A stretch of DNA of 64,000 nt from Candidatus Campbellbacteria bacterium (lineage in GTDB: Bacteria; Patescibacteriota; Minisyncoccia; Phycocordibacterales; EsbW-18). A program made the position numbers and the translations under genes. Where the stretch lies: NCBI GenBank assembly GCA_016699465.1, contig CP064977.1:10096-74095 (forward strand), given 5' to 3'. The notes under the pieces are model-generated. The model worked only from the letters and a program-made list of their open reading frames with translations. It was not told the origin of the DNA and did no database searches. Below, piece by piece: positions 36,343 to 55,081 of the stretch (position 1 is the first letter of the stretch; the number at the start of each line of letters is the position of its first letter).

Positions 36343-36483
36343 GCGGGCGGTCTCGTGTTAGAACCAAAGTCGGACAAGACCAGTAAGGTTATTTTAGCAC
36401 TTTTTCAGAAACTAAATCGACGCGTCTCGTGCGGACTAAAAAGTGACAAAAGTTACACTACTTGGGGTATATAAAGTTACACC

Positions 36484-37095
36484 CTACTGTAACTTTATAA
36501 CTTTAAATGAACCTGTGTTATTTCTATCTCTGCCAGAATAGTATTCTGTTTCAAGGCTATTTTCATCAGTAAGTTTGGCTGTCGCAGATCCATAGTGAAT
36601 ATGCATAGTCTCAGGCGCACTATCCTTTGGGACATTCATATACTGATAATGAATTCTGGCTGTATCAAATTGATCCACATTCATTGATGTCTCAAAACTA
36701 TGAGATTCCGATGTCTCTGTTTCTAGGTAAATACTGACATGTGTCCATGTTTGTTTAATACAAAACTTTTTTGTTGGTATCGGTCCTTTTGAGTAAACAG
36801 AAGCCGAGTTTATTTCACCCGACCATGAGCCATCAACTATAGGCGTTCTAATTCCAAGTAGCTTACGAATATGTTTGTTTCTCCAAAGCTTAGTATCAAA
36901 CCATTTATACAGAATTCCGTAGAACCCTATTACTGATGGCGCTTCTATCCACCAAGGCAGGGATATTACGTTCTTGGAGAATAAATACAGCCCCCAAGCA
37001 AGCAATATTGCAAATACTGCCAAGTAGAAAGATGCCTTTTTATGTTCTTCTGAATTTATTGAATATGGGTGCATATAGATTATCTTTCGTACCAA
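36484..37095 (-). CDS. 2TM beta-strand-rich effector-like membrane protein (S-2TMbeta-like), overlapping the SMODS gene by 16 nt
   Basis: Two N-terminal TM helices (FYLAVFAILLAWGLYLF, WWIEAPSVIGFYGILYKWF), then a beta-rich soluble domain. Translational coupling with the upstream cyclase. Confidence 0.5.
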   Translation of the reverse strand: MVRKIIYMHPYSINSEEHKKASFYLAVFAILLAWGLYLFSKNVISLPWWIEAPSVIGFYGILYKWFDTKLWRNKHIRKLLGIRTPIVDGSWSGEINSASVYSKGPIPTKKFCIKQTWTHVSIYLETETSESHSFETSMNVDQFDTARIHYQYMNVPKDSAPETMHIHYGSATAKLTDENSLETEYYSGRDRNNTGSFKVIKLQ

Positions 37096-37997
37096 TTATC
37101 CCAAAGATCAACAAGTGCAACTATTGTCGCTACAGCATCGTCAGTATTCCATTGCTCTCCTGACGTGCCAAAAAGTGGTATAAGACCATTTTGACACATG
37201 AAATCGTCAATTGGGTTAGTGTATAAATAATTTAAAACAGATCTTGTTGACGCAGATAAATCGTTAGAGAAACAAGAGTTTGGTACATTGTAAATTAAGC
37301 TTTGTAAAAAATACGATGGTGCCTTTTCTTTATCTAGAAGACCTTTGTCAACAAGATAATTTCGAGCGTTTTTTATAATTCTTACAACCTGCTTAAATTG
37401 ATTTTGAGTATTTTGATGTTTTTGTGCACCATTTTTGAAATGATGTTCAGGGTAATTTACAATGGCTCTATTGGTTGTTCGGTGATAAAATTTTACACCT
37501 TCCTCTGAACTATGTGTGTCAGATCCGAAAAAATAGTCATACTTACGATAATTAATTACTGGTACCACATCCGCTTTTAAGCGACCCGATGTTGGTAGAA
37601 TTTTAATAGATTTATTTCCGCTTGTATCAACATTAGCTACAGCATAGTAGCTTTCGAGTGCCGAAATAACATCTCGTCGCAAATCTTGCCAATCGTAAAT
37701 AGCGCTACTGTATGCTTGATCATGAGCAGTTTTTTGTTCATAAGGAAGTTCATGTGCATTATGACCAAACGTAGTTGTAAGCTCAACGACAACATCAACA
37801 TCGCTATCCGCCCTAATATTTGTGTCGTTTTTATAAGAACCTTGTAAATAAATTTTTACAGAACCACTACTAATACGATCTTTCAGTGGCGAAAGATCGT
37901 GAGTAAGTGCACAACGTATAGATTCGTGAGTTGTTTTAGATGACACAGTAGCACCTTGGTTCGACCATGTTTCTAATTGAGAAAGAGGTATAGACAT
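37080..37997 (-). CDS. SMODS-domain nucleotidyltransferase (CD-NTase-like cyclic oligonucleotide synthase)
   Basis: Pol-beta NTase core YLQGSYKNDTNIRADSDVDVVVEL (GS...DxD), a third acidic residue in KADVVPV, and SMODS-like KSIKILPTS and QVVRIIKNAR. Confidence 0.65.
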   Translation of the reverse strand: MSIPLSQLETWSNQGATVSSKTTHESIRCALTHDLSPLKDRISSGSVKIYLQGSYKNDTNIRADSDVDVVVELTTTFGHNAHELPYEQKTAHDQAYSSAIYDWQDLRRDVISALESYYAVANVDTSGNKSIKILPTSGRLKADVVPVINYRKYDYFFGSDTHSSEEGVKFYHRTTNRAIVNYPEHHFKNGAQKHQNTQNQFKQVVRIIKNARNYLVDKGLLDKEKAPSYFLQSLIYNVPNSCFSNDLSASTRSVLNYLYTNPIDDFMCQNGLIPLFGTSGEQWNTDDAVATIVALVDLWDNWYER

Positions 37998-37999
37998 AT

Positions 38000-38227
38000 T
38001 TAGCCCCTAGGTGGGAATGGATCGTTGCCGTAACTATTACGTTCCTGAATCTTTCCATCTTTACCGTGAATAAAATGTTCAACCTTTGCTTTTTCAGCAA
38101 TATTTTCTGCTCTATTGAGAGCATTCTCTTTTGTGTGATGTGAAGAAAGTGGAGTAGAAGATTTTTCTGCTTTATTTTCCCACATGTGACGATCTGAATT
38201 GAAAACTGTATGTATATTTTTTGCCAT
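38000..38227 (-). CDS. DUF2188-family small protein
   Basis: MAKNIHTVFNSDRHMWENKAEKS...TKENALNRAENIAEKAKVEHFIHGKDGKIQERNSYGNDPFPPRG matches the DUF2188 pattern ...HV.P...GW.VK.EG......T...A...AR..A.....EL.IHG.DG.I....SYGNDP.PP.G. Confidence 0.6.
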   Translation of the reverse strand: MAKNIHTVFNSDRHMWENKAEKSSTPLSSHHTKENALNRAENIAEKAKVEHFIHGKDGKIQERNSYGNDPFPPRG

Positions 38228-38240
38228 ATGTTTTTTAAGA

Positions 38241-38879
38241 TTAACTTTTAATAATACCCACAACCTTTCCGCTTATCTGGAAGTCATCACCCTCGTGAAT
38301 AAATATTGGTAGATATTTTTCAGTTGAGTCGGCTTCTAGAATAATCATTCTATTCACCTTGTCTTCTCTGTATCGCTTGATCGTAGCAAGACCGTCTATA
38401 ACAGCGACAACTATGTCAGTATTTTTATAAATCTTGTATTCACTATCAACCAAAACAAAATCTCCACTTTCAATCGTCTTTCCATCAATTTCTGCTTTGT
38501 TCATACTATCGCCGTCAGCGATAAGTGCATACAAATTACTTTTGTTGCGTGGAAGAAGTGAAGAAGAAATTTTCAAATACTGGTCTATATTTTGCTCTGC
38601 GAATATTGTGGCAGGACCACAGTTGGCAGACCCAACAACAGGGAGGGAGTAGATCGGACTTGCTGATGCTTTTGCATAACCTCTTTTGACGAGCTTTATA
38701 ACCCCAGCTTCAAGATTCATTTGGATCAATCCTCCCTCAGCAAGCTTCTGAAGGTGGTACTTGGCAGTCTGGGGTTTTCCCTCTGCACCAACCATTTCAG
38801 CTATCTTTCTAAGGCTGTATGACCCAAAATCCTCGTGTGTCGCAATAAGATCTAAAAGTTGCTTTTGTATGATATGCAT
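38241..38879 (-). CDS. lexA: LexA-like repressor (winged-HTH plus S24 peptidase), possibly a phage CI-type repressor
   Basis: N-terminal LexA DNA-binding-domain-like segment (LTQKQLLDLI...YHLQKLAEGGLI). A C-terminal Ser-Lys dyad (GDSMNKA, ATIKRY). Confidence 0.8.
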   Translation of the reverse strand: MHIIQKQLLDLIATHEDFGSYSLRKIAEMVGAEGKPQTAKYHLQKLAEGGLIQMNLEAGVIKLVKRGYAKASASPIYSLPVVGSANCGPATIFAEQNIDQYLKISSSLLPRNKSNLYALIADGDSMNKAEIDGKTIESGDFVLVDSEYKIYKNTDIVVAVIDGLATIKRYREDKVNRMIILEADSTEKYLPIFIHEGDDFQISGKVVGIIKS

Positions 38880-38957
38880 AGGGGTAGTATAGCATGTTCA
38901 AAGTAAAGTGTAAATAAAGATTTGACATTTTACACCCCCTCTTGATAGAATAGAGAC

Positions 38958-39371
38958 ATGGAGCAGAAATTAGTATTGCACGAAGCGATTCACGAACCCA
39001 AATTGGGTGATATTATCATCGAAATAACCGATGTTCAATTTCACACCAATGCTCGTGTGACCACTTCCCAAGCAAATACTATTGATCGCTCCGTGCAGTC
39101 AAATAAGCCTGGTCGAGTATTTTCTCCAATGAGCCAAGGCTCGTTGAAAATAATAGAAAACAATACATTGTTGTTTTCTGGTCCATTTTTTGATTACGAA
39201 CAACTCAAAATTCTTGTTACAAAATATAATCAACAAGGAAAAAGAGTTTTTATTAAAAAACCAACAGCTAAAATACCATTACTTCCTGGTAAAGATACTG
39301 TTGAATTCGTAAACAGTATAAAGGGACAAAGAATTTTAAGGAGATTAGAAAAACAGGAAAAGATTGCTTAA
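38958..39371 (+). CDS. Hypothetical protein, divergent from the lexA-like gene
   Basis: ORF only. No recognisable motif. Confidence 0.35.
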   Translation: MEQKLVLHEAIHEPKLGDIIIEITDVQFHTNARVTTSQANTIDRSVQSNKPGRVFSPMSQGSLKIIENNTLLFSGPFFDYEQLKILVTKYNQQGKRVFIKKPTAKIPLLPGKDTVEFVNSIKGQRILRRLEKQEKIA

Positions 39372-39533
39372 AACAATAATGCGTAGTAACAAGCGAATAG
39401 TGTAGCTCCCTAGGACATGCCTATTCCGCGCAAAAAATAGCAGAAGCTTCGAACTTCTTTTATTTTGTGTGTGGAATAGGCTTTTTCTATACCTGTGTCC
39501 ATACATTTTATTAAAAATTATTAATAAAATGCT

Positions 39534-40808
39534 ATGCAAAAAATACAATGGCGTGCAGAAATTCGAGAGGTTAAAGATCTTGTTCCTTGGAAAGAAAATC
39601 CGAGAAAAATAACAAAGGTCGCTCTTGAGAAATTAAAAGACAAAATCATTCAAAGTGGTTTTCATAGTGTGATCGTTGTTGATACCGACAATACTATTTT
39701 GTCAGGTAACCAAAGAAAAGTAGCTCTCACTCAATTAGGAATCAAGGAAGTCCCTGTTCTCGTTCCTGATCGTACACTCACTAATGATGAGCGTACCAAG
39801 ATTGCACTTGAAAGCAATGTGAACGATGGCGAGTGGGATTTTGAAAAGCTTAAGTCGTTTGATTTAGATCTCATAAAATTTGCAGGATTTTCTGACATGG
39901 AAATCGCAAAGTTTTGGGATGAAGACAAAGATACAAAAGACGATAAGTTTGACGTCGACAAGGAAATCAAAAAGATAAAGACACCTGTGGTGCAAAAAGG
40001 TGATCTCATTATCATGGGTGATCACAAGTTACTCTGTGCCAGTTCAACAGACATACACGCCGTACAAAAACTATTCGGAGAGCATAAGGCGACGGCTATC
40101 TATAGCGATCCACCTTTTAATATCGGGCTATCGTATGACAAAGGCGTTGGTAACACCAGAAACTATGGTGGATCTTTCGACGACAACCAGTCTCCAAAAG
40201 AGTACGTTGAATTCATTCGACAAGTATTGAAGTCTGCACTTTCTGTATCTGTTGAAGACTTGCATGTCGCATTCTGGGCGGATGAAGCCTGGGTGTGGGT
40301 TTTTCAAACGCTCTACATGGAACTGGGTATTAAGAACAGACGCTTGAATGTCTGGGTGAAGAACAATTCATCACCGACCCCTACGGTTGCTTTCAACAAA
40401 TGTACAGAGTTTTGTGTCTATGGAAGTAAAGGATCTCCATACTTGTCTGACTTGGTAAAAAATCTCAATGAGATACAAAACAAAGATCTAAGCACAGGAA
40501 ACCAATTGCTTGAAGAAATATCAAACCTCTGGGCAACGAAGCGACTTCCATCGAATCAAATGGAGCACCCAACAAGCAAGAATCCAGAATTACATCATAA
40601 GTTCATTATGCGTTGCACTAAGCCTGGCGACATTATTTTTGATGCCTTCTCGGGATCTGCTAGCACCATGATCTGTGCGGAACAATTGGGTCGCAAGGTG
40701 TACTCCTTAGAAATCGAGCCAGTATTTTGTGATTTGGCAATTCGCCGTTATGAAAAACTGACTGGTCGGAAAGCAGAGATAATCAAAAACTTCTATGAAG
40801 AAAAATAA
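39534..40808 (+). CDS. ParB-like nuclease domain fused to a beta-class N6-adenine/N4-cytosine DNA methyltransferase
   Basis: ParB N-terminal motif SGNQRKVALTQLG. Catalytic motif IV SDPPFNIG precedes SAM motif I FDAFSGSAST (beta order). Such fusions are typical of phages and plasmids. Confidence 0.8.
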   Translation: MQKIQWRAEIREVKDLVPWKENPRKITKVALEKLKDKIIQSGFHSVIVVDTDNTILSGNQRKVALTQLGIKEVPVLVPDRTLTNDERTKIALESNVNDGEWDFEKLKSFDLDLIKFAGFSDMEIAKFWDEDKDTKDDKFDVDKEIKKIKTPVVQKGDLIIMGDHKLLCASSTDIHAVQKLFGEHKATAIYSDPPFNIGLSYDKGVGNTRNYGGSFDDNQSPKEYVEFIRQVLKSALSVSVEDLHVAFWADEAWVWVFQTLYMELGIKNRRLNVWVKNNSSPTPTVAFNKCTEFCVYGSKGSPYLSDLVKNLNEIQNKDLSTGNQLLEEISNLWATKRLPSNQMEHPTSKNPELHHKFIMRCTKPGDIIFDAFSGSASTMICAEQLGRKVYSLEIEPVFCDLAIRRYEKLTGRKAEIIKNFYEEK

Positions 40809-41202
40809 ACTCCAAGATCATTTTTTTGAAGAACTGACAAAAGTACCGATTGTACAAGTTGCTTGTGAAAAAACAGGTGTCTCTCGCAATAGTGTATACC
40901 GTTGGCGGAAAGACGATGCTTCATTCTGCAAGAAAATGGATCAAGCACTTAAAGACGGTGTGGCGTTGGTGAACGATATGAGTGAGACACAGCTCCTCAC
41001 CTTGATTAAGGAAAAGAATTATCCCGCCATCAGTTTCTGGCTCCGTCACCGCAATGACAACTACAAAAATAAACTCGAAATCACGACAAAAGAAGAAAGC
41101 GAAGCACTCACACCGTCACAGGCAAAGATCGTCCGCAACGCTCTTAAACTCGCTTCTATTACCAAGAGCAAATCCATTAAAAGAATTAACAAAGAAAAAT
41201 AA
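40795..41202 (+). CDS. Putative terminase small subunit (HTH protein immediately upstream of TerL)
   Basis: HTH-like VACEKTGVSRNSVYRWRK. The call rests on size and position. Confidence 0.45.
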   Translation: MKKNKLQDHFFEELTKVPIVQVACEKTGVSRNSVYRWRKDDASFCKKMDQALKDGVALVNDMSETQLLTLIKEKNYPAISFWLRHRNDNYKNKLEITTKEESEALTPSQAKIVRNALKLASITKSKSIKRINKEK

Positions 41203-41204
41203 TT

Positions 41205-42734
41205 ATGACTAAAATAATTGAAACCAGTTTAGTGAATAAAATGATGAAAGATAAGTTAGTGCGAACCTCTATCACTAAAGATAGCTTCTTGTACTTCTTC
41301 CACTTCTATTATGCCCATTATGTAAAGTATGAGACTGCGGACTTCCAGAAAGAGATCATCCACCATTTAGAAAAGTCAGCCATAGAGAATTTGTATGTGG
41401 TGGCATTTCGTGGATCAGGAAAATCAACCATGGTGACAACTGCATACCCGATCTGGGCGATCCTTGGAAAACAACAAAAGAAGTTTTGTATGATCTTCTG
41501 TCAGACCAGAATACAAGCCAAGCAACACATGATGAACATTAAAAACGAACTTGAGGGAAATGATCTGCTCAAGAAAGACCTCGGACCATTCCAAGAAGAG
41601 AGCGATGAATGGGGTTCATATTCTCTTGTGTTCAACAAAAGCGGTGCCAGAATTACAGTTGCTTCAACTGAACAAAGTATCCGTGGGTCACGACACAATG
41701 AACACCGCCCCGATCTCATCATCTGTGACGACGTTGAAGACGTACAGTCCACCAAAACACGCGAGGGGCGGGATAAGACATACCAATGGCTCTATGGCGA
41801 GGTTATTCCTGCGGGAGATAGAAAGACCCGATTGATCATTGTTGGAAACCTCTTACACGAAGATTCGCTTCTCATGCGTATCAAGGATGATATTGAGAAC
41901 AAACGCTCAAGAGGTGTCTTTAAACAATACCCACTTTTAGATGAACAAGATGTTTGTTTATGGCCTGGAAAATATCCAGAACTCAAAGATGTTGAAGAAC
42001 AGAAAATGAGTGTGGCGAGTGAGATATCGTGGCAGAGAGAATACTTGCTCCGTATTATTCCAAGTGACGATCAAGTAATTTATCCAGAGTGGATTCAATT
42101 CTATGACGAACTTCCTGGAACAAAACATAAGGGCTATCGTGGTACCTATGCAGGAGTGGATCTTGCAATCTCAACCAAAGATTCAGCGGACTATACTGCT
42201 ATCGTGTCTGCTCATGTGTATTCTCGTCGGGAGAAAATGAGAATCTATATTCTTCCAAATCCAATAAAACAGAAATTAAATTTTCCTGCACAAGTTGATC
42301 TCATGAAGAACTTCAAGAATACACAAATGCCAAGAAGACAAGATACGCTGTTTGTTGAAAGTGTGTCGTATCAAGAAGCCTTACCACAAATGCTTGAACT
42401 TAACGGTGTTGAAGCAGAGTCAGTAAAGCCAAAAGGAGACAAAAGAACAAGACTATCTCTCACTTCGACTTCTATCAAATCAGGAATCATTAAGTTTCCG
42501 CGGCACGGATGTGAAGATCTGATCCAAGAGCTTGTTGGATTCGGTGTTGAAAAGCATGATGACTTAGCCGATGCTTTTTCGCTCCTTATTAACTCGACAT
42601 TAGACAAACACGCACATGACGGTACGGTACTTATGGCATGGGTTAGTACAGATCGTAACTATGGCTGTGACGACGATGACATCTTATATTACAGCGATTA
42701 TGTTGATGTAGAAAAACCTATTCGTTTATCTTAA
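41205..42734 (+). CDS. Phage terminase large subunit
   Basis: Walker A AFRGSGKST and Walker B LIICDDVED. RNase-H-like nuclease domain with acidic residues (GVDLAISTKDSADYTAIV, HDDLADAF). Confidence 0.85.
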   Translation: MTKIIETSLVNKMMKDKLVRTSITKDSFLYFFHFYYAHYVKYETADFQKEIIHHLEKSAIENLYVVAFRGSGKSTMVTTAYPIWAILGKQQKKFCMIFCQTRIQAKQHMMNIKNELEGNDLLKKDLGPFQEESDEWGSYSLVFNKSGARITVASTEQSIRGSRHNEHRPDLIICDDVEDVQSTKTREGRDKTYQWLYGEVIPAGDRKTRLIIVGNLLHEDSLLMRIKDDIENKRSRGVFKQYPLLDEQDVCLWPGKYPELKDVEEQKMSVASEISWQREYLLRIIPSDDQVIYPEWIQFYDELPGTKHKGYRGTYAGVDLAISTKDSADYTAIVSAHVYSRREKMRIYILPNPIKQKLNFPAQVDLMKNFKNTQMPRRQDTLFVESVSYQEALPQMLELNGVEAESVKPKGDKRTRLSLTSTSIKSGIIKFPRHGCEDLIQELVGFGVEKHDDLADAFSLLINSTLDKHAHDGTVLMAWVSTDRNYGCDDDDILYYSDYVDVEKPIRLS

Positions 42735-43635
42735 AAGAGACAATCGCAAGTGGTAGTTCAAAGTCATCCATTGAGATAATGAATGGACCTTCCTTACCTT
42801 TCTTGTATAGGTACAAAAATCCATCTCTAATATCTAGAGAGGATATTTTGTCGTACGGAATACTGAAGTGTTTATTAAGACCAATATATCCAAGATTTTC
42901 TGTTGTTAGATAAAAAGTACCAGCATCGTCTGTCATCATGACATTCACTTTTTGTGGATTAATTTTGACATTACCAACTCGGTATCTCAACCCCTTGGCA
43001 ATTTTTATAGATGCAGAAAAACCACTGTAGTTATAACTCTTGGTTATCGATTTGTTTTTGATAATAAATGCCTTACTAACATAGTGCAGTTTTTCACCAT
43101 TACTTAAATTAACATTCAAATTAGGAACATCAATAGTTGGAAGTTTACCCTCGTCGATTAGATAAAGTGTATGGTATTTATTAAAATCACTCTGATTGTA
43201 AGCGAGATTATCAGTTGAAAGATTTAGATCTGAATAAATTTTAACTAGTTCCTTTCGCTCTGCTTCTGTAATTCGTGAGTCATCAGTGATCTTGTCAAAG
43301 AAAATTTTGAATCCTGCTAAGTTGTATTTCTCAACATCCTTGTCAGTTAAATTATGCTCCTTTTTAATTTCTTCTAAAATTATTTTCTCTTCATCTGAGA
43401 GGTTGCCGTCAATTAATAGCTCTTTAATTTTCTGAGAATATAAATCTAAGCCTTTTCTTTTTGGTGATCTGAATACTTTGGTAAATAAAAGATAGATTAC
43501 ACCGACAATAAGACCTATATAAACGAGGTTTTTAAATAAATCAAAATTAACTATAACAATAGTAAGAACAACGAGAACAATAATTATCTGTTTAAAAAGA
43601 GATAATTGTTTAAACTTTTCTAAAAGATTTTTCAT
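42718..43635 (-). CDS. Hypothetical membrane protein: two TM helices, TerB-like helical repeats, and a bacterial-PH-like C-terminal domain
   Basis: TM helices at the N-terminus. DGNLSDEEKIILEEI and SRITEAERKELVKIY resemble TerB. TDDAGTFYLTTENLGYIG...SIPYDKISSLDIRDGFLYLYKKG resembles a bPH domain. Confidence 0.4.
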   Translation of the reverse strand: MKNLLEKFKQLSLFKQIIIVLVVLTIVIVNFDLFKNLVYIGLIVGVIYLLFTKVFRSPKRKGLDLYSQKIKELLIDGNLSDEEKIILEEIKKEHNLTDKDVEKYNLAGFKIFFDKITDDSRITEAERKELVKIYSDLNLSTDNLAYNQSDFNKYHTLYLIDEGKLPTIDVPNLNVNLSNGEKLHYVSKAFIIKNKSITKSYNYSGFSASIKIAKGLRYRVGNVKINPQKVNVMMTDDAGTFYLTTENLGYIGLNKHFSIPYDKISSLDIRDGFLYLYKKGKEGPFIISMDDFELPLAIVSFKINE

Positions 43636-43989
43636 AAACTTTGGACGGTTTTGTTATGAAGGATCGTATAGGTAGCAAAAAGCTCCTAGCCAGATCCGAT
43701 ATACCCCGTGAGGTATACCCATACCCGTTTCCAGATATGACCGTCCAAAGTAGACTCTGACTAGGAGTTCTTTACTTTGGACGGATTTTGCGACCATATC
43801 CTGTAATTGCTTACAGGGGTTAGGTCTCTGTATTAACTTGTAAATGAATAATAACATTTTTGACCCTATTATTCAATTTAAATTCTATCGCAAACCCCTA
43901 GTTTTGCTAAGGCTAGTACGCGAGTACGCTACGTTTTTTTAGTTCTGCATAGACTTAGCAAGACTAGTGTTCTCTGTCATTAATATAGT

Positions 43990-45309
43990 ATGGAAACATA
44001 TACCACAGCCAGAATTGGTAAGGAGGTTATAGCACCAGTACAAAAAATTAGGTACGTTCTATATGCTCGTAAATCAACCGAATCAGAAGAACGCCAAGTT
44101 CTTTCGATTGATTCGCAAGTAAAGGAAATGCTTGAGCTTGCCGAACGTGATGGACTGGAAGTCGTAGAAATACGAAGAGAATCGCATAGTGCAAAAGAAT
44201 CAGGACAACGACCTGTGTACAAGGAAATTTTAGAAGATGTACGACGAGGACGATTTAATGGAATCCTCACTTGGGCACCCGATCGTCTTTCTCGTAACGC
44301 TGGTGACTTGGGAAGTATTGTCGATCTCATGGATCAGCAACTACTAATGGAGATTCGGACATACGGTCAACAGTTTAAAAACTCACCGAACGAAAAGTTC
44401 CTTTTAATGATTTTGTGTTCTCAAGCAAAACTTGAAAACGACAACAAGAGTATTAACGTAAAACGAGGATTGCGAACAAGAGTAGAAATGGGATTATGGC
44501 CTGGTCCTGCTCCAACAGGCTATATGAAAGAGAAACGAATGGATCGAAAGTGTGAGACACTCCTTGATCTAGAACGAGCACCAATTATTAAAAAGATGTT
44601 TGAGAAAGTGGCGTATGAACATTGGAGTGGTAGAAAAATCTATAATTGGCTCAAATTTGATTTAAACCTCAGAACCGCTGTAGGAAAGAAACATCTCAGT
44701 TTAGGAAATATTTATAAAGTTTTAGATAACACCTTTTATTACGGAGTTTTTGAGTATCCAAGACGATCAGGTAATTGGTATACAGGAAAGCATGAACCAA
44801 TAGTGACTAAGGAATTGTTTGATCTAGTACAAGCACAGATAAAAAGTAATGTGTTAAGAGTAGAAAACAAGGAGTTTGCTTTTACTAAAATGATGCTCTG
44901 TGGATTATGCGGATCTGGCATATCAGCAGATGAGAAATTCAAGAAAATCAAGAATGGTGGTGTTGCTCGATACGTCTATTACGGCTGTACTAAAGCGCGC
45001 GGGGTGGATTGTAAATGTGGGTATACAGAAGAAAGAGAATTGCTCAAGCAGTTCAACGAACTAATCGAAAAGATAAATTTAAATGAAATAGAAGTCAAAG
45101 AAAAGATAAAATATGATGTTGAGCGATTTTCTAAACTACAAAAATTCTTACTAGGGACTAAAGAAAAAATTGATATCCCAAATATAGACGTACGAGGATA
45201 TGCGAAGTATGTCTTAAAAGAAGGAACCGATATTGAAAAGCGAGAACTACTTGGATGTTTGAAGAGTAAGATCTGTTTGGCGAATAAAAAGATTACTTTG
45301 AAAGAATAA
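43990..45309 (+). CDS. Large serine recombinase (phage-type serine integrase)
   Basis: Resolvase catalytic domain (YARKSTESEERQ...SIDSQ), a recombinase domain, and a zinc ribbon CGLCGSG...YYGCTKARGVDCKC. Confidence 0.9.
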   Translation: METYTTARIGKEVIAPVQKIRYVLYARKSTESEERQVLSIDSQVKEMLELAERDGLEVVEIRRESHSAKESGQRPVYKEILEDVRRGRFNGILTWAPDRLSRNAGDLGSIVDLMDQQLLMEIRTYGQQFKNSPNEKFLLMILCSQAKLENDNKSINVKRGLRTRVEMGLWPGPAPTGYMKEKRMDRKCETLLDLERAPIIKKMFEKVAYEHWSGRKIYNWLKFDLNLRTAVGKKHLSLGNIYKVLDNTFYYGVFEYPRRSGNWYTGKHEPIVTKELFDLVQAQIKSNVLRVENKEFAFTKMMLCGLCGSGISADEKFKKIKNGGVARYVYYGCTKARGVDCKCGYTEERELLKQFNELIEKINLNEIEVKEKIKYDVERFSKLQKFLLGTKEKIDIPNIDVRGYAKYVLKEGTDIEKRELLGCLKSKICLANKKITLKE

Positions 45310-45341
45310 GTACAAAACTAATAGGACCCATCATTTTGACA

Positions 45342-45365
45342 AGTATACCCCCTAAGGGGTATACT
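45342..45365. promoter_or_regulatory. Candidate CsoR operator, a perfect palindrome agtatacccc-cta-aggggtatact
   Basis: Perfect inverted repeat read directly. Located 2 to 25 bp upstream of the csoR start. Confidence 0.55.
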
Positions 45366-45366
45366 T

Positions 45367-45648
45367 TTGCCTATGGAATACTTAGACAAAAAGAGTAAGG
45401 AAAAAATTGTTCGCAGGCTCAAACTTATTGAAGGTCAAATCAGAGGCCTTCAAAAAATGGTCGACAATGACACTTATTGCATTGATGTTATTACGCAGAC
45501 TTCGGCAGTCAAACAAGGTCTTTCCAACATTGAAGACTTGTTGCTTGAAAACCATCTGAATCATTGCGTAGAACATGATATGTCTTCGGGTAAGCTTGTT
45601 AAAGCAAAAAGCGAGGTCATGAAAGTCTACAAGCTTAAGAGGAAATAA
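45367..45648 (+). CDS. csoR: CsoR/RcnR-family metal-sensing repressor
   Basis: 93 aa with the W-X-Y-Z ligand pattern (C in DTYCIDV, H and C in HLNHC). A four-helix DUF156-like length. Confidence 0.75.
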   Translation: MPMEYLDKKSKEKIVRRLKLIEGQIRGLQKMVDNDTYCIDVITQTSAVKQGLSNIEDLLLENHLNHCVEHDMSSGKLVKAKSEVMKVYKLKRK

Positions 45649-45662
45649 AGCTACAATCATAT

Positions 45663-47597
45663 ATGTTTAAACAACTTTTACAAAACAAAAAATTTAAATA
45701 CTTACTCATCGCTCTTGTGGCGGTTATTCCTTTTGAAGCCCTGTCTCTTTCGGGAAAACACTTACCGTATCCTATTGAACTGGGAGCATTGGGGCTGATT
45801 GTCATTATATTCGGTCGAGATGTCTTCAAGAAAGGAATCATAAGCCTTTTGAGACTCCGTTTTTCAAGCATCAATCTTTTGATGACTATTGCTGTTATCG
45901 GCGCAGTTGCAATTGGCGAGCTTGAAGAAGCAGCGATTGTCATAATTCTCTTCTCTCTCGGTAATGTGCTTGAAGATTTTGGGATTTCCCGTAGCAAATC
46001 TTCACTTCAAGAGTTGGTAAACAAGACACCGAAGCAAGCAACTCTCAAGGACGGAACGGTTTTGCCACTAACTGAACTCGCAGTAGATATGATCATTGTC
46101 GTAAAGCACGGAGATATTATTCCCGTTGACGGTACGATTGTTTCAGGTAATTCGCTTGTAGATGAATCATCAATCACTGGAGAACCGCTTCCAAAAACAA
46201 AAGTGGCTGGCGATGCTGTGTTCGCAGGAAGCGTGGCAAGTGATGGATATCTTGAAGTAAGGGTCACAAAGCTTTCAGGTGAAAGCACGTTGCAGAAGAT
46301 AATAAATCTTACCTATGAAGCAGCCGAACGAAAATCAAACGCTCAAGCCTTCATTGAAAAATTCGCTAAATACTATACGCCACTCATCTTGCTTTCCTCT
46401 GTGCTCTTAGTGGTCATTCCTGTCCTCATTTTTGGCGAGCCATTTCAAAAGTGGTTTATTCAAGCTCTAACCCTCCTTATTATTTCTTGCCCGTGTGCTT
46501 TAGTCATCTCTACTCCTGTTAGCGTATTCTCAGCAGTAGGCAATGCCTCACGCAGAGGAGTTGTGATTAAAGGTGGTCGCTTCTTGGAGGAAATGGGTAA
46601 GATTAAAGCGATAGCATTCGACAAGACTCGCACCATTACCAAAGGTACGCCGATCGTAACTGATGTTATTCCTTTTGGCGAGAATACTGAGCAGGATGTC
46701 ATCTCATGCCTTTCAGGGCTTGAAACATTTTCTGAACATCCAATCTCAAAAAGTATCATTGCCTATGCGACAGAGAAGAAAATGGATTTGCATACGTTCG
46801 ATTCTTACAAAGCAACTTCAGGCAAAGGCATAGAAGGAGTTTGTCTTGTGTGTACCGATAGTCATCGCTGTGCAGGTACGCTTGCATATATGAGAGATGA
46901 GCATGGAGCAATTGACGACAGTATCACTAAAAAGGCGGAGGGACTTGAGAAACAAGGAAAGACTGTTATTTTTGTTTCCAATGGAGCAGAAATCAAAGGA
47001 ATTGTCGGAGTGAGTGATGAAATAAAAGAAGACAGCGCGCGAGCAGTTAGCGAACTCAAGAAAATAGGTATCACTTCAATCATGCTTACTGGCGATACGC
47101 TTGCTCCGGCACAGGCTGTGGCGAACACCGTTGGTATTGATGAAGTGTATGTGTCACTTCTACCAGAAGAAAAAGTTGCACGAATACAAGAGCTGAAAAA
47201 GAAATACGGATCAGTTGCCATGGTTGGAGATGGGGTCAACGATGCTCCAGCATTGGCTACGTCATCTGTTGGTATTGCTATGGCTTCAACTGGATCAGAT
47301 GTTGCAATTGAGAATGCTGATATTGCGATCATGAACGACAAACTATCCCTTCTGCCAGAGCTTATCTCGATTGCACAAAAATCAAATGGCATTATTCGCT
47401 TCAATATTGCGCTTGCCTTGATTACTAAAGTTGGATTCCTTGGACTTGCTGTTTCAGGTAATGCTAACCTTGTTATGGCGATTGTTGCGGATGTTGGAGT
47501 AACGATCTTTGTGGTAATCAATTCGTTGCGTCTTTATAACTACGACAGCACAACCGTAGCAGATAACCATTCTGATGGGACGTGCAGTAGTTGTTAG
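45663..47597 (+). CDS. Heavy-metal P1B-type ATPase without an N-terminal metal-binding domain. The phosphorylation motif reads DKTRT.
   Basis: CPC in SCPCALV, the phosphorylation site AFDKTRTIT, GDGVNDAPAL, eight TM helices, and a Cys-rich C-terminus (GTCSSC). Confidence 0.85.
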   Translation: MFKQLLQNKKFKYLLIALVAVIPFEALSLSGKHLPYPIELGALGLIVIIFGRDVFKKGIISLLRLRFSSINLLMTIAVIGAVAIGELEEAAIVIILFSLGNVLEDFGISRSKSSLQELVNKTPKQATLKDGTVLPLTELAVDMIIVVKHGDIIPVDGTIVSGNSLVDESSITGEPLPKTKVAGDAVFAGSVASDGYLEVRVTKLSGESTLQKIINLTYEAAERKSNAQAFIEKFAKYYTPLILLSSVLLVVIPVLIFGEPFQKWFIQALTLLIISCPCALVISTPVSVFSAVGNASRRGVVIKGGRFLEEMGKIKAIAFDKTRTITKGTPIVTDVIPFGENTEQDVISCLSGLETFSEHPISKSIIAYATEKKMDLHTFDSYKATSGKGIEGVCLVCTDSHRCAGTLAYMRDEHGAIDDSITKKAEGLEKQGKTVIFVSNGAEIKGIVGVSDEIKEDSARAVSELKKIGITSIMLTGDTLAPAQAVANTVGIDEVYVSLLPEEKVARIQELKKKYGSVAMVGDGVNDAPALATSSVGIAMASTGSDVAIENADIAIMNDKLSLLPELISIAQKSNGIIRFNIALALITKVGFLGLAVSGNANLVMAIVADVGVTIFVVINSLRLYNYDSTTVADNHSDGTCSSC

Positions 47598-47606
47598 GAA
47601 AATATA

Positions 47607-47640
47607 GTTAGAAAAAAGAACGACAATTGTCGTTCTTTTT
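47607..47640. terminator. Rho-independent terminator after the P-type ATPase
   Basis: aaaaaagaacgacaattgtcgttcttttttctg. Confidence 0.6.
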
Positions 47641-47737
47641 TCTGCAACATGTAGGTTTGTGGGTCGCACTTAGTACATAACTAAATGGGTCATCAAAACT
47701 AACAGTCATAGACAAAGTAAGGATTAATTAACTAGGT

Positions 47738-47960
47738 ATGCGAACAAAACTTGAAGAAGAGATCAAGCGATTTAACTGACAGCAAAGACTTGCAACCAAA
47801 AGAACGCCAAAGTATTCAATCAACGAAGATGCCGTGAATATTAGAGAATATGCCAAGTATGTACTTAGAGGAGGGTACTCCACTGGAGAAGCATGAACTG
47901 ATTGGACATTTGAGGAGCAGGTTAATACTGAAAGAGAAGAAAATCACCTTGGTAGTGTAA
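47738..47960 (+). pseudogene. Degraded C-terminal fragment of a second serine recombinase gene, with stops and frameshifts
   Basis: Nucleotide and translated similarity to the last roughly 75 codons of the 43990-45309 recombinase (atatgccaagtatgtacttagaggagg versus atatgcgaagtatgtcttaaaagaagg; ...aaagagaagaaaatcacc versus aataaaaagattactttg). In-frame stops are present. Confidence 0.6.
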
Positions 47961-47979
47961 TGGAGAAATTAAGTAGTTG

Positions 47980-48008
47980 ACTTCCAAAACCATATACCCT
48001 ATACTATA
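47980..48008. promoter_or_regulatory. Candidate CsoR operator, a perfect palindrome ccatataccctata-c-tatagggtatatgg
   Basis: 14-bp perfect arms, immediately upstream of the second csoR. Confidence 0.55.
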
Positions 48009-48014
48009 GGGTAT

Positions 48015-48302
48015 ATGGTCAAACAAACACACAATCATGTTCACAAGCACGGTGAGCCGAATACAAAAGCTCGCAAAGTTATTAATATGGCAATAGGAAG
48101 TGTAGCTAAGATTCCTGAGATGGTCGACGATGGACGATACTGCCCTGAAATTATTCAGCAGATCGATAGTGTCGTAGGTCTTTTACATAGCGCACGAAAA
48201 GAATTACTAAAGGGTCACTTAGAGTCTTGTCTTGCTGAAAGGTTAAAGACCGACAAGGAAGGTTCAATCAAAGAATTGTTAAAAATCTACAACATGCAGT
48301 AG
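48015..48302 (+). CDS. csoR: CsoR/RcnR-family metal-sensing repressor (second copy)
   Basis: RYCPEII (Cys), HLESC (His and Cys), 95 aa. Confidence 0.75.
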   Translation: MVKQTHNHVHKHGEPNTKARKVINMAIGSVAKIPEMVDDGRYCPEIIQQIDSVVGLLHSARKELLKGHLESCLAERLKTDKEGSIKELLKIYNMQ

Positions 48303-48340
48303 ATTTTTAGTGTTTTATTATTAAATTTATATAAAAAATT

Positions 48341-48904
48341 ATGTCTAAAATTTCAACAACATTAGCAATTTCTCTTATGGTAGTAACAAGTGTTTTGGGG
48401 TGGGTTGCTGGGTATGCCAGTACTGCTGACTATAAAGTGAATATGTACGACAAAACAACTATGGATTTTGGTCGTCCAGATCGAACACTTGATCTTCGTT
48501 ATATTGATGCGATGATTGCTCATCATAGAGGAGCAATGCTTTTGGCTACACAAGCAAGTACACAGACACAGCGACAAGAAATGAAGGATCTCTCTGCGAT
48601 GATTTTGCGGGATGAGCCAAAATCAATTGCTGAGCTATACACATGGAAAAAAGATTGGTATGGAGATACAAAACAAGTAAAAGACCCAATTGTTTCTAAC
48701 ATTGGAACGTATGATGAGAAATTTGATCTTCGCTTTCTTAATGCACTTATCGCACACCATGAAGCAGGATTGCTCATGACAAAAGAAATAAAGACAAAAT
48801 CAAGTAGAACTGAAATTTTAAATAATGCGGATGCGGTTGATACATTCCTTACAACAACACTTAAGATCTTCAAAGACTGGAGAACACAGTGGTATAACAT
48901 CTAA
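48341..48904 (+). CDS. DUF305-domain protein (a copper-homeostasis-associated four-helix protein), secreted
   Basis: Two DUF305 repeats: YIDAMIAHHRGAMLLA and FLNALIAHHEAGLLMT. Confidence 0.75.
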   Translation: MSKISTTLAISLMVVTSVLGWVAGYASTADYKVNMYDKTTMDFGRPDRTLDLRYIDAMIAHHRGAMLLATQASTQTQRQEMKDLSAMILRDEPKSIAELYTWKKDWYGDTKQVKDPIVSNIGTYDEKFDLRFLNALIAHHEAGLLMTKEIKTKSSRTEILNNADAVDTFLTTTLKIFKDWRTQWYNI

Positions 48905-48918
48905 TATAAAATCCCTAT

Positions 48919-51189: not shown

Positions 51190-51193
51190 TTAT

Positions 51194-52777: not shown

Positions 52778-52780
52778 TTT

Positions 52781-53416: not shown

Positions 53417-53439
53417 ATTATAAACATAACCAAAATATT

Positions 53440-54450: not shown

Positions 54451-54457
54451 TTATCAT

Positions 54458-54853: not shown

Positions 54854-54859
54854 ACGCAA

Positions 54860-54900: not shown

Positions 54901-54991
54901 ATCTTGCGCGCAAAGTTCTAGCGTCTCAAATGGGTTGATTTTAAACCTATTAAAAATACTTAAAAACTAAGCATCTCGTGCTATCACGATT

Positions 54992-55081
54992 TGGCGGAGA
55001 CGGGAGGATTCGAACCTCCGATCCGGTTTCCCAGATGCCGGTTTTCGAAACCGGTGCCTTCAACCACTCAGCCACGTCTCC
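54992..55081 (-). tRNA. tRNA-Ser(CGA), type II, CCA encoded
   Basis: Reverse complement gives GGAGACG-TG-GCTGAGTGGTTGAAGGC, anticodon stem-loop CCGGT-TTCGAAA-ACCGG, a long variable arm, and T-arm GGAGG-TTCGAAT-CCTCC. Confidence 0.8.

What the first reader, a model, noticed from the sequence alone, without database searches (positions are those of the whole stretch)
36484..45309. Prophage-like integrative element with terminase genes but no structural genes, ending in a large serine integrase
Gene content: CBASS-like module, LexA/CI-type repressor, ParB-nuclease and beta-class methyltransferase fusion, putative TerS, TerL (Walker A/B plus nuclease), a 2TM TerB/bPH membrane protein, and a large serine recombinase with a zinc ribbon. 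No portal, capsid or tail genes follow TerL. This looks like either a decayed prophage or a satellite/PICI-like element that hijacks a helper phage's particles. CPR mobile elements are poorly characterised.
Basis: partly seen in the sequence, partly recalled or inferred. Interest (0 to 1): 0.65.

Follow-up and report, generated by a model that had tools for sequence, protein, structure and literature searches.

The report
Capsid-less terminase-carrying mobile island
This is an 18.7-kb mobile island inserted next to a tRNA-Ser gene of a Patescibacteria (CPR) genome; it belongs to a widespread, apparently undescribed family that keeps a phage DNA-packaging enzyme and an integrase but no capsid genes, carries anti-phage and copper-resistance cargo, and probably spreads by stealing the capsids of other phages.

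Summary
The boundaries and the "decayed prophage" option are wrong. Near-identical copies with unrelated flanks place the element at about 36,343-54,999 (18.66 kb). It runs from the start of tsaD to the 3' end of tRNA-Ser and includes the whole copper-resistance cluster.

The core order is S24 repressor, divergent from a variable small gene, then ParB-methyltransferase, TerS, TerL, variable cargo and a large serine integrase, ending at a tRNA 3' end. This order recurs in about 100 loci with TerL identity from 40 to 100%. The ATPase and nuclease residues of TerL are invariant. In many loci the integrase starts within about 150 nt of the TerL stop.

Portal and capsid genes follow TerL only in a separate phage clade at 37-45% identity. 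Cargo elsewhere includes CBASS, Thoeris, type III restriction-modification, diversity-generating retroelements (DGRs) and copper resistance. The "67-aa ORF" is a LOOT RNA (Rfam RF03000).

Best reading (about 0.5): a new family of SOS-inducible, helper-dependent phage satellites that package themselves with their own terminase. No helper phage, excised circle or replication gene was found.

The parts
36343..36364 (.). Left junction (attL): GCGG | GCGGTC TCGTGTTAGAAC. Proposed P' half-site of the serine-integrase site. The first GCGG is shared with the tRNA-Ser 3' end.
   Evidence: Homology with L001, L002, L013 and L038 begins exactly here while the flanks are unrelated. The motif is conserved at the left end of more than 20 loci.
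36343..36483 (+). Conserved non-coding left-terminal region, about 140 nt. It holds a second TCTCGTGCG site (36425-36433), the 17-mer AAGTGACAAAAGTTACA (36441-36457), a TATAAA box and the palindrome GTTACA-N6-TGTAAC (36468-36485). Candidate packaging, operator or promoter site.
   Evidence: Alignment of 17 left ends. The 17-mer occurs with at most 2 mismatches in 35 loci, always near the left end on the + strand. Function is inferred, not shown.
36484..37095 (-). CBASS effector Cap15 (2TM plus cyclic-dinucleotide receptor). Cargo.
   Evidence: Pfam Cap15_CD_rec 1.6e-25 and Cap15_TM 2e-10. PADLOC 2TM effector 3.5e-57.
37080..37997 (-). CBASS CD-NTase (oligonucleotide cyclase). Cargo.
   Evidence: PADLOC cyclase PDLC00788 6.7e-106.
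38000..38263 (-). DUF2188 small protein (candidate-defence family PDC-S16).
   Evidence: Pfam DUF2188 9.4e-16. PADLOC PDC-S16 3e-25.
38241..38879 (-). Master repressor: N-terminal wHTH plus S24 autopeptidase (GDSM Ser, downstream Lys, Cys-Gly candidate cleavage site).
   Evidence: Pfam Peptidase_S24 1.6e-19. phrog_4 transcriptional repressor 1.1e-22. Sequence. Homologue present in 28 loci.
38886..38951 (.). Divergent promoter/operator region. Rightward: TTGACA-18-TG-TAGAAT (38922-38951). Leftward: TTTACA-17-TATACT (38914-38886). Inverted repeat GTGTAAA-N14-TTTACAC overlaps the rightward -35.
   Evidence: Consensus scan, the two best-placed hits. Sequence. Function inferred.
38958..39371 (+). 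137-aa protein of unknown function in a variable 'first gene' slot. Other elements have unrelated proteins here.
   Evidence: No Pfam, PHROG or PADLOC hit. AF2 model pLDDT 44. Slot variability.
39534..40808 (+). ParB_N-domain plus N6/N4 DNA methyltransferase fusion. Core gene.
   Evidence: Pfam N6_N4_Mtase 4.2e-29 and ParB_N 3.2e-4 (sub-threshold). phrog_498 3.7e-73. Present in 46 of about 50 loci directly upstream of TerS.
40795..41202 (+). Small terminase subunit (HTH type). Core gene.
   Evidence: Seven TerS PHROGs with weak E-values (best 2.5e-8). Position immediately upstream of TerL. Conserved in 44 loci.
41205..42734 (+). Large terminase subunit with ATPase and RNaseH-like nuclease domains. 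Core gene.
   Evidence: phrog_38 6.6e-79 over residues 13-474. Matches the ATPase domain of solved large-terminase/DNA-maturase structures 8dgc and 4bij. Walker A, Walker B and nuclease acidic residues invariant in alignment A1.
42718..43635 (-). 305-aa membrane-anchored protein in the accessory slot downstream of LOOT RNA.
   Evidence: Two N-terminal hydrophobic segments. Weak DUF5048 and PDC-S48 hits. Other elements carry secreted SNase or HNH proteins in this slot.
43698..43826 (-). LOOT RNA (Rfam RF03000), 62 nt upstream of the start codon of the 305-aa gene. Overlaps and explains the spurious 67-aa ORF.
   Evidence: 80 bits against a gathering score of 46.4, full-length model match. Found in 9 other elements at the same position. 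Spacing of 60-66 nt to the next start codon.
43990..45309 (+). Large serine recombinase (integrase). Core gene.
   Evidence: Pfam Resolvase 9e-21, Recombinase 4.5e-14, Zn_ribbon_recom 6.2e-5 (sub-threshold). phrog_95 5.4e-59. YARKS catalytic motif. Present in 38 loci downstream of TerL.
45297..47963 (+). 2.67-kb variable insert absent from L001 and L002. Contains CsoR-type repressor (45373-45648) and P-type ATPase (45663-47597), with a CsoR-type palindromic operator/promoter at 45336-45365.
   Evidence: blastn gap. Pfam hits. Promoter scan and sequence.
47964..54853 (+). Copper-resistance cargo: CsoR 48015-48302, DUF305 48341-48904, CopA-type ATPase 48919-51189, multicopper oxidase 51194-52777, 211-aa unknown 52781-53416, HMA plus DsbD_2 53440-54450, cupredoxin 54458-54853.
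   Evidence: Pfam. 97.8-99.5% identical in L001 and L002, contiguous with the integrase.
54974..54999 (.). Right junction (attR): TCTC GTGCTATCACGA TTTG GCGG | AG. Proposed P half-site abutting or overlapping the tRNA-Ser 3' end.
   Evidence: The window, L001 and L002 diverge inside the tRNA directly after TGGCGGAG. The motif TCTCGTGCTAG/T is conserved at the right ends of more than 12 loci.
54992..55081 (-). tRNA-Ser(CGA), the integration target. Its 3' end faces the element.
   Evidence: ARAGORN and Rfam tRNA. In 19 loci, including the window, a minus-strand tRNA (Ser, Gln, Glu or Asn) occupies the same position.

Best explanation
The element spans window ~36,343-54,999 and is a member of a large, ancient family of site-specific integrative elements of Patescibacteria.

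Its conserved core is a CI/LexA-like S24 repressor, a ParB-methyltransferase, TerS, TerL and a large serine integrase. It has no capsid, portal, tail, lysis or recognisable replication genes.

Proposed life cycle (inferred):
1. The serine integrase inserts a circular form at the 3' end of a tRNA gene (here tRNA-Ser). The crossover lies in a short GCGG shared with the tRNA acceptor end.
2. In the integrated state the S24 repressor shuts off the rightward operon (variable gene, ParB-MTase, TerS, TerL and probably the integrase). Cargo is expressed from its own promoters: CBASS, the LOOT-led membrane protein and the CsoR-controlled copper efflux/oxidase genes.
3. DNA damage (RecA-stimulated autocleavage) or a helper signal lifts repression.
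4. The element is methylated, excised, or packaged in situ. Its own TerS-TerL holoenzyme recognises an element-specific site and pumps the ~15-kb DNA into procapsids made by a co-infecting or co-resident helper phage.

On this reading it is a 'terminase-only' phage satellite that also serves its host as a defence and metal-resistance island.

Shown: the boundaries, mobility, conserved architecture, intact terminase motifs and the tRNA target. Inferred: induction, packaging into helper capsids and the packaging site.
For: Boundaries and mobility:
- L001 and L002 match window 36343-45296 and 47964-~55000 at 96-99.5% identity, with unrelated left flanks and three different tRNA-Ser sequences on the right.
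- G+C is lower (0.32-0.43) across 37-55 kb than in the flanks.
- The flanks are host genes: tsaD, sortase, FtsZ, FtsA.

Family:
- 47 loci came from species-representative genomes and about 50 more from IMG/VR.
- They share the order ParB-MTase, TerS, TerL, (0-8 kb), serine integrase.
- Of the 38 genome loci scanned for tRNAs, 18 show a minus-strand tRNA-Ser, -Gln, -Glu or -Asn gene downstream of the integrase with its 3' end facing the element.
- Conserved end motifs are present. The reconstructed attP is symmetric: 12-mers matching 10/12 flank a 14-nt centre. In L027 the proposed right-end motif lies 17 nt upstream of a left-end motif, as the reconstructed attP predicts.

Not a remnant:
- In about 15 loci the integrase starts within about 150 nt of the TerL stop.
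- TerL Walker A (FRGSGKST), Walker B (RPDLIICDD) and nuclease acidic residues are invariant from 45 to 100% identity.
- Portal, protease, major capsid and tail genes follow TerL only in a distinct clade at 37-45% identity. Some members of that clade share the ParB-MTase, TerS, TerL order.

Satellite-like traits:
- Element sizes are 11.6-18.7 kb (median ~15 kb, n=15) despite different cargo. This is about one third to one half of the 28-58-kb contigs of the related phage clade.
- Cargo is dominated by defence systems: CBASS, Thoeris, type III R-M, DGR, caspase plus TIR. My recollection is that P4-like satellites and PICIs carry similar cargo; I did not check this in a paper.
- The TerL C-terminal tail is acidic/aromatic and hypervariable between subclades.
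- One host MAG (nzgw467, source of L044) is reported to carry three ~44-kb prophages (PMC12455944).
Against: - No helper phage was identified.
- The related portal-bearing phages could not be assigned to Patescibacteria.
- The predicted attP junction was not found in JGI metagenome or IMG/VR contigs. No circular or DTR contig was found. No empty site was recovered.
- No replication initiator, primase or origin was recognised, whereas most known satellites replicate before packaging.
- No recombination directionality factor was recognised.
- TerS is assigned from weak profile hits plus position only.
- The size clustering rests on 15 elements with partly approximate left ends.
- A satellite that brings both terminase subunits but no capsid genes has no experimentally studied precedent that I could find.
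Confidence: 0.5

Rival explanations
1. Defence or interference island with helper-independent purpose. The element is a site-specific integrative island. Its terminase mainly sabotages infecting phages, for example by cutting or mis-packaging their concatemers or occupying their procapsids, or it drives in-situ packaging and lateral transduction of adjacent DNA. Its own horizontal spread would be a by-product.
For: Heavy load of defence systems across the family. No replication module. TerS-TerL lie upstream of the cargo and the tRNA, which fits unidirectional in-situ packaging. Satellite-encoded small terminases are listed among phage defence and interference genes in PMC9618062.
Against: Interference alone does not explain near-identical copies at different tRNA loci, or the strict co-conservation of the integrase, att ends and terminase over deep divergence. 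Mechanistically this overlaps the satellite model rather than excluding it.
Confidence: 0.2
2. Capsid-independent mobile element. It excises as a circle and spreads by natural transformation or another route. TerS/TerL would serve a non-packaging role such as linearisation, processing or maintenance.
For: No helper found. No virion-associated evidence. A precedent exists for satellites moved by natural competence (PMC13376191, title and abstract). From my own knowledge, Patescibacteria commonly carry competence and type IV pilus genes.
Against: A complete two-subunit terminase with invariant ATPase and nuclease sites has no known function other than genome packaging into procapsids. Its nearest relatives sit in front of portal and capsid genes.
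Confidence: 0.1
3. Host-domesticated packaging module (GTA-like). The terminase cooperates with structural genes encoded elsewhere in the same genome.
For: Structural genes are absent locally. Only 64 kb of this genome could be inspected.
Against: The module is clearly mobile. It has different chromosomal contexts, att ends, tandem arrays and two or three copies per MAG. Its distribution is patchy and element-like rather than vertical.
Confidence: 0.07
4. Decayed prophage that lost its structural genes by deletion.
For: Phage-type repressor, methyltransferase, terminase and integrase. The related phage clade shares the ParB-MTase, TerS, TerL order.
Against: The same portal-less layout occurs in about 100 loci spanning 40-100% TerL identity. 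No pseudogenes were seen. Catalytic residues are invariant. Ends are precisely conserved. Mobility is recent.
Confidence: 0.03

Closest known systems
PICIs / SaPIs (phage-inducible chromosomal islands)
   Same: Integrated islands of about 15 kb with a master repressor and divergent promoters. They carry a packaging-specificity gene (TerS), lack tails, and carry accessory or defence cargo. The size is a fraction of a phage genome.
   Different: PICIs use tyrosine integrases, encode a primase/replication initiator and origin, and rely on the helper's TerL (own knowledge of the family). This element has a large serine integrase, no detectable replication module, its own TerL, and an SOS-type S24 repressor.
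Capsid-forming PICIs (cf-PICIs)
   Same: They encode both TerS and TerL, so packaging is independent of the helper terminase.
   Different: cf-PICIs also encode portal, protease, major capsid and head-tail connectors and borrow only tails (own knowledge of the family). Here no capsid or portal gene exists, and in many relatives the integrase starts within about 150 nt of the TerL stop.
PLEs of Vibrio cholerae and serine-recombinase VEIMEs (marine virion-encapsidated integrative mobile elements)
   Same: Satellites that integrate with a large serine recombinase. VEIMEs are capsid-less integrative elements actually found in virus particles, and some carry TerS (PMC9618062; PMC6002521, abstract).
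   Different: No TerL is reported in those elements. The hosts, target sites and gene sets differ. No sequence relationship was tested beyond the domain family.
Temperate HK97-type phages with ParB-MTase, TerS, TerL, portal order (IMG/VR loci L104, L115-L138)
   Same: Homologous TerL (37-45% identity) and in part the same three-gene packaging module order.
   Different: They continue with portal, protease, major capsid and tail genes and sit on 28-50-kb contigs. The element family replaces all of that with an integrase and cargo.
tRNA-targeting genomic islands and tycheposon-like cargo elements
   Same: Insertion at tRNA 3' ends, tandem accretion, and variable cargo of defence and metal-resistance genes.
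   Different: tRNA-targeting islands typically use tyrosine recombinases and have no packaging genes (own knowledge). Here a serine integrase targets tRNA ends and a terminase is core.

Membership tests
Large serine recombinase (integrase) family | N-terminal resolvase catalytic domain with active-site Ser, plus recombinase domain, plus zinc-ribbon domain. | tested here: met
   Pfam Resolvase 9e-21, Recombinase 4.5e-14, Zn_ribbon_recom 6.2e-5 (below its curated cut-off). YARKS motif at residues 25-29. phrog_95 5.4e-59.
Phage large terminase (TerL) | Walker A and Walker B ATPase domain followed by an RNaseH-like nuclease domain with conserved acidic residues. | tested here: met
   phrog_38 6.6e-79. 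Terminase_6C above the Pfam cut-off. ATPase-domain match to solved large-terminase/DNA-maturase structures 8dgc and 4bij. Invariant FRGSGKST, RPDLIICDD, D319, E385, D452/D453/D456.
Phage small terminase (TerS) | Small DNA-binding (HTH) oligomeric protein encoded directly upstream of TerL. | tested here: inconclusive
   Seven TerS PHROG families match only weakly (2.5e-8 to 6e-3). All Pfam hits are below their cut-offs. Position and conservation (44 loci) fit. Oligomer formation and DNA binding were not tested.
PICI / SaPI | Tyrosine integrase. | tested here: not met
   The only recombinase is a large serine recombinase.
PICI / SaPI | Own primase/replication initiator and origin. | tested here: not met
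   No replication domain in any element ORF by Pfam, PHROGs or PADLOC. The unknown 137-aa protein remains unassigned.
PICI / SaPI | Induction by a helper-phage protein and packaging in helper capsids. | not testable with these tools
   Needs experiments or virome data.
cf-PICI | Encodes its own major capsid, portal, protease and head-tail adaptors in addition to TerS and TerL. | tested here: not met
   No structural hit in the PHROG scan of the nine ORFs from 38000 to 45309. The two CBASS ORFs and the copper-resistance ORFs were scanned against Pfam and, for CBASS, PADLOC, and gave no structural domain. In about 15 relatives the integrase starts within about 150 nt of the TerL stop.
Intact temperate prophage | Head, tail and lysis modules. 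| tested here: not met
   Absent from 36,343-54,999 and from the flanks that were checked.
Type I CBASS | CD-NTase plus an effector, without ancillary Cap2/Cap3 or HORMA/TRIP13 genes. | tested here: met
   PADLOC cyclase 6.7e-106 and 2TM effector 3.5e-57 are adjacent. No ancillary gene is present.
LOOT RNA (Rfam RF03000) | Score at or above the family gathering threshold over the full covariance model. | tested here: met
   80 bits against 46.4, model positions 1-121 of 121. Nine more matches in related elements scored 56-96 bits.
LexA/CI-type autocleavable repressor (S24) | N-terminal DNA-binding domain plus a C-terminal S24 domain with a Ser-Lys dyad and a cleavage site. | tested here: met
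   Peptidase_S24 1.6e-19 over the full profile. GDSM Ser, a downstream Lys and a Cys-Gly site are visible in the sequence. Cleavage itself was not tested.

The most novel reading that the evidence does not exclude
Patescibacteria harbour a phylum-wide, ancient class of 'terminase-only' phage satellites. They are integrative elements of roughly 12-19 kb where both ends could be placed (median ~15 kb). They have kept just the packaging enzyme (ParB-MTase, TerS, TerL) and a tRNA-targeting large serine integrase. They package themselves into capsids of unrelated helper phages. They are the main vehicles that move defence systems (CBASS, Thoeris, R-M, DGRs), metal resistance and the LOOT RNA-led surface-protein cassette among these tiny genomes.
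Probability: 0.4. Interest if true: 0.85.

Novelty: new variant of a known kind. Interest (0 to 1): 0.72.

Why it matters
- How the small, streamlined genomes of CPR bacteria exchange genes is poorly understood. One recent paper states that only one Patescibacteria phage had been described and very few defence systems identified in these genomes (PMC12366544).
- A single recognisable element family accounts for more than 3,700 TerL clusters (at 90% identity) with E <= 1e-10. It is present once to three times per roughly 1-Mb genome and carries CBASS, Thoeris, R-M, DGR and copper-resistance cargo. That would make it a major route of horizontal transfer and immunity in this phylum.
- The architecture (both terminase subunits, no capsid) would extend the known spectrum of phage parasitism between TerS-only PICIs and capsid-forming cf-PICIs.
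- It supplies a family of large serine integrases with natural tRNA-end target sites, which is of interest for genome engineering.
- It gives a genomic home and a testable role to the orphan LOOT RNA.

Tried and rejected
1. Exact and gapped searches for the predicted excised-circle or tandem junction (attP) found nothing in JGI metagenome contigs (2 scans) or IMG/VR (2 scans). The pattern matched only L027 among the held loci.
2. No contig among the held loci has terminal direct repeats, so there is no sign of circular assemblies.
3. Look-ups for an empty site through exact flanking proteins (TsaD, CAP-domain protein, FtsZ) failed. TsaD is not on record. The other contigs break inside tsaD or inside the 92-nt repeats, before reaching the junctions.
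4. The AlphaFold2 model of the 137-aa protein, built from 8 homologues, had mean pLDDT 44. It is unusable, so no fold search was run.
5. A portal protein of the related phage clade was searched to find its hosts. No Patescibacteria label appeared, so the hosts stay unknown.
6. GenBank phages give at best 27% TerL identity (Mu-like Mannheimia and Haemophilus phages), so there is no cultured relative.
7. Left ends of the most divergent subclade (L041, L042, L050) could not be located by motif search.
8. The short TCTCGTG repeat alone is not significant in the window: 10 found against 7.2 expected. Only its extended, position-specific form is informative.
9. Five literature searches found no description of this architecture. 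A sixth found only one paper mentioning LOOT RNA. The library is incomplete, so prior description cannot be excluded.
10. 'Decayed prophage' and 'host core synteny' were considered and rejected on the comparative evidence.

Full report
**1. Observation**

| Gene | Coordinates | Key evidence |
|---|---|---|
| Cap15 2TM effector | 36484-37095 (-) | type I CBASS with the next gene |
| CD-NTase | 37080-37997 (-) | PADLOC cyclase 6.7e-106 |
| DUF2188 protein | 38000-38263 (-) | Pfam 9.4e-16 |
| S24 LexA/CI-type repressor | 38241-38879 (-) | Peptidase_S24 1.6e-19 |
| Unknown 137-aa protein | 38958-39371 (+) | no hits |
| ParB_N plus N6/N4 methyltransferase | 39534-40808 (+) | phrog_498, 3.7e-73 |
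| HTH protein, weak TerS hits | 40795-41202 (+) | best PHROG 2.5e-8 |
| TerL | 41205-42734 (+) | phrog_38, 6.6e-79, full length |
| 305-aa membrane protein | 42718-43635 (-) | weak DUF5048, PDC-S48 |
| Large serine recombinase | 43990-45309 (+) | three Pfam domains |

No structural or lysis gene was found. Two details need correcting. The 67-aa ORF at 43654-43857 is covered by a full-length match to LOOT RNA (RF03000; 80 bits against a gathering score of 46.4). No TerB domain was detected in the membrane protein.

**2. True extent**

The exact TerL protein occurs on eight public contigs. L003 is identical to the window. L001 and L002 match window 36343-45296 and 47964 to about 55000 at 96-99.5% identity, and nothing else in the window.

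Reading the junctions gives the following:
- Left: homology starts at GCGGGCGGTCTCGTGTTAGAACC (36343), directly after the tsaD start codon. Five different left flanks precede this sequence (the window, L001, L002, L013, L038).
- Right: the shared sequence ends at ...TCTCGTGCTATCACGATT-TGGCGGAG. After that the window, L001 and L002 continue with three different tRNA-Ser sequences.

The mobile unit is therefore about 36,343-54,999 (18.66 kb). It includes about 9.7 kb of copper-resistance genes after the integrase:
- two CsoR repressors with palindromic operators
- two P-type ATPases
- DUF305
- multicopper oxidase
- HMA-DsbD_2
- cupredoxin

The window copy carries an extra 2.67-kb CsoR-ATPase insert (45297-47963) relative to L001 and L002. 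G+C is depressed over 37-55 kb. The flanks are host genes: tsaD, sortase and a surface protein on the left; tRNA-Glu, a kinase, PGA_cap, TrxB-like, FtsZ and FtsA on the right.

**3. A family, not a remnant**

A scan of one genome per species found 47 loci, nearly all in Patescibacteria MAGs. tblastn and clustering show a conserved core. In order:
- repressor on the minus strand (28 loci)
- a variable small gene on the plus strand
- ParB-MTase (46 loci)
- TerS (44 loci)
- TerL (52 loci)
- 0-8 kb of variable genes
- serine integrase (38 loci)
- further cargo

Of the 38 genome loci scanned for tRNAs, 18 show a minus-strand tRNA gene downstream of the integrase whose 3' end faces the element (Ser, Gln, Glu or Asn). 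With the window that makes 19. In about 15 loci the integrase begins within about 150 nt of the TerL stop, which leaves no room for structural genes.

A profile scan of IMG/VR added about 50 more loci of the same type, with TerL identity of 40-79%. Bona fide phages appear only at 37-45% identity. In L104 and L126, TerL is followed by portal (phrog_2662, about 1e-114 to 1e-120), protease and major capsid (phrog_10), and in L126 also by a tail protein. Some of these phages also have a ParB-MTase upstream.

In a neighbour-joining tree the portal-linked TerLs form one clade. The integrase-linked ones form a large separate radiation. This is a rough distance tree. GenBank phages reach only 27% identity.

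Across 45-100% identity the TerL Walker A (FRGSGKST), Walker B (RPDLIICDD), GNLLHEDS and the nuclease acidic residues D319, E385, D452, D453 and D456 are invariant. The database search returned 3,703 TerL clusters (at 90% identity) with E <= 1e-10, and the listed best 120 are 77-96% identical to the window protein. These facts exclude a decayed prophage.

**4. Attachment sites**

Left ends read (tRNA-like GCGG or GTGA...) followed by TCTCGTG(T/A)TAGAAC. Right ends read TCTCGTGCTA(G/T), then 7-8 nt, then the tRNA 3' end.

Joining the window's right and left ends gives a predicted attP: GTGCTATCACGA-TTTGGCGGGCGGTC-TCGTGTTAGAAC. Two 12-mers that are 10/12 reverse-complementary flank a 14-nt centre. 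That is the geometry expected for a serine-integrase site. GCGG is the only sequence shared with the tRNA end, so it is the likely crossover. This is inference.

L027 contains the sequence this model predicts between two tandem elements: TCTCGTGCTAG-CTGTTGAA-GGTGAGCC-T-TCTCGTGATAG. The contig ends about 460 nt further on, so a second element there was not confirmed. L026 shows a similar tandem junction. Several MAGs carry two loci.

tRNA targeting by a large serine integrase is unusual to my knowledge.

**5. Other conserved non-coding features**

A left-terminal region of about 140 nt is conserved. It contains a second TCTCGTGCG site, the 17-mer AAGTGACAAAAGTGACA, a TATAAA box and a GTTACA...TGTAAC palindrome (6-nt spacer in the window). 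The 17-mer is found in 35 loci with at most 2 mismatches. Its role is open: packaging site, repressor operator or promoter.

Between the repressor and the rightward operon lie the two best-placed promoter-like sites. These are TTGACA-18-TG-TAGAAT rightward and TTTACA-17-TATACT leftward. The inverted repeat GTGTAAA-N14-TTTACAC overlaps the rightward -35. This is a classical immunity-region layout.

The repressor has the S24 Ser (GDSM), a downstream Lys and a Cys-Gly candidate cleavage site. That suggests SOS-type induction.

**6. Cargo**

Related elements carry the following cargo:
- Thoeris (ThsA-Macro plus ThsB-TIR)
- type III R-M (Mod plus Res)
- diversity-generating retroelement parts (reverse transcriptase plus bAvd)
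- caspase plus TIR
- DUF2726
- secreted SNase and HNH nucleases
- large methylase/helicase pairs
- copper-resistance blocks

There are three cargo positions: left of the repressor, between TerL and the integrase, and right of the integrase.

In 7 loci including the window, the LOOT RNA ends 60-66 nt upstream of the start codon of a protein with an N-terminal membrane anchor. In the window it ends 62 nt before the 305-aa gene. This points to a cis-acting leader rather than a free sRNA (inference).

**7. Mechanism**

A two-subunit terminase under strong constraint has no known role other than packaging DNA into procapsids. The element makes no procapsids. The simplest reading is a helper-dependent satellite that supplies its own packaging specificity and motor.

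Supporting hints:
- Sizes are 11.6-18.7 kb, median about 15 kb in 15 elements with both ends placed (some left ends approximate). The related phage contigs are 28-58 kb.
- The TerL C-terminal tail is hypervariable and acidic/aromatic. In other phages this is the portal-docking region (own knowledge; alignment).
- The cargo is rich in defence systems.
- One host MAG (nzgw467, source of L044) is reported to hold three ~44-kb prophages (PMC12455944).

Missing evidence:
- no helper identified
- no replication gene
- no directionality factor
- no excised form found
- no empty site found

I put the satellite model at about 0.5. The main rivals are:
- an interference or lateral-transduction island (0.2)
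- capsid-independent spread (0.1)
- a GTA-like partnership with unlinked structural genes (0.07)
- a decayed prophage (0.03)

**8. Comparison and novelty**

The element works most like a PICI, but it fails the PICI membership tests: it has a serine rather than a tyrosine integrase, and no primase or origin. It also fails the cf-PICI test because it has no capsid or portal.

It shares the integrase class with PLEs and some marine VEIMEs. No TerL is reported for those elements (PMC9618062).

Five literature searches found no description of a TerS-plus-TerL, capsid-less, serine-integrase, tRNA-targeting element family in Patescibacteria. The library is incomplete, so this is not proof of novelty. 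I rate it a new variant of a known kind, namely the phage satellite or integrative island.

Noticed in passing
window 43698-43826 (-); also L011, L013, L014, L017, L030, L036, L037, L039, L041: LOOT RNA (RF03000), classed by Rfam as an sRNA, is a recurrent part of these elements. It lies between TerL and the integrase. In 7 loci including the window it ends 60-66 nt before the start codon of a membrane-anchored or secreted protein (305-aa protein, SNase, Zn-ribbon/HNH pair). This suggests a cis-acting 5' leader. It is absent where the integrase abuts TerL.
   Followed up: partly
window 55059-55270: About 2.3 tandem copies of a 92-nt unit (98% identical). Each begins with the first 23 nt of tRNA-Ser (5' acceptor/D-arm) plus the upstream sequence, so there are three copies of the tRNA 5' fragment. 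A public contig of the same strain breaks inside this array (L141). Origin unexplained. It lies on the side of the tRNA away from the element.
   Followed up: no
window 45297-47963: A 2.67-kb CsoR plus P-type ATPase insert is present in the window and L003 but absent from the otherwise 96-99.5% identical copies L001 and L002. It begins 13 nt before the integrase stop codon and so changes the last codons of the integrase. Palindromic CsoR-type operators overlap promoter-like sites at about 45343-45362 and about 47990-48015.
   Followed up: partly
window 36391-36399 (-): An outward-facing extended -10-like TGCTAAAAT lies about 50 nt inside the left end. It is conserved in several relatives (L019, L051, L038). 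It could transcribe across attL into the flanking host gene (here tsaD, whose start codon abuts the element).
   Followed up: no
L008, L017, L024, L025, L027, L044, L046, L051, L055: Related elements carry reverse transcriptase plus bAvd (diversity-generating retroelement parts), often next to a type III R-M pair. Some have a ~300-aa protein directly after TerL that may be the DGR target.
   Followed up: no
L073, L075, L076, L077, L079 (IMG/VR): Two TerL paralogues (~48-50% identical to the window TerL) lie in tandem before the integrase in one subclade.
   Followed up: no
L027 20213-20254; L026 ~4640-4680: At these sites the proposed right-end motif is followed within about 20 nt by a left-end motif. 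This is the arrangement expected at a junction between two tandem elements and amounts to a natural attP-like sequence. The L027 contig ends about 460 nt further on, so a second element there was not confirmed. Several MAGs hold two loci (L011 with L015; L027 with L037; L033 with L038).
   Followed up: partly
L010 versus window 55-59 kb: L010 carries a related element at the same tRNA-Ser(CGA)/tRNA-Glu(UUC) site. However, tRNA-Val and the TrxB-like gene, which lie right of the site in the window, lie left of the element in L010. This suggests an inversion or rearrangement around the insertion site.
   Followed up: no
window 7001-9000: G+C rises to 0.52-0.56 against about 0.42 elsewhere, next to a cluster of four tRNA genes at 9.0-9.9 kb. 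It may be an rRNA gene. Not examined.
   Followed up: no
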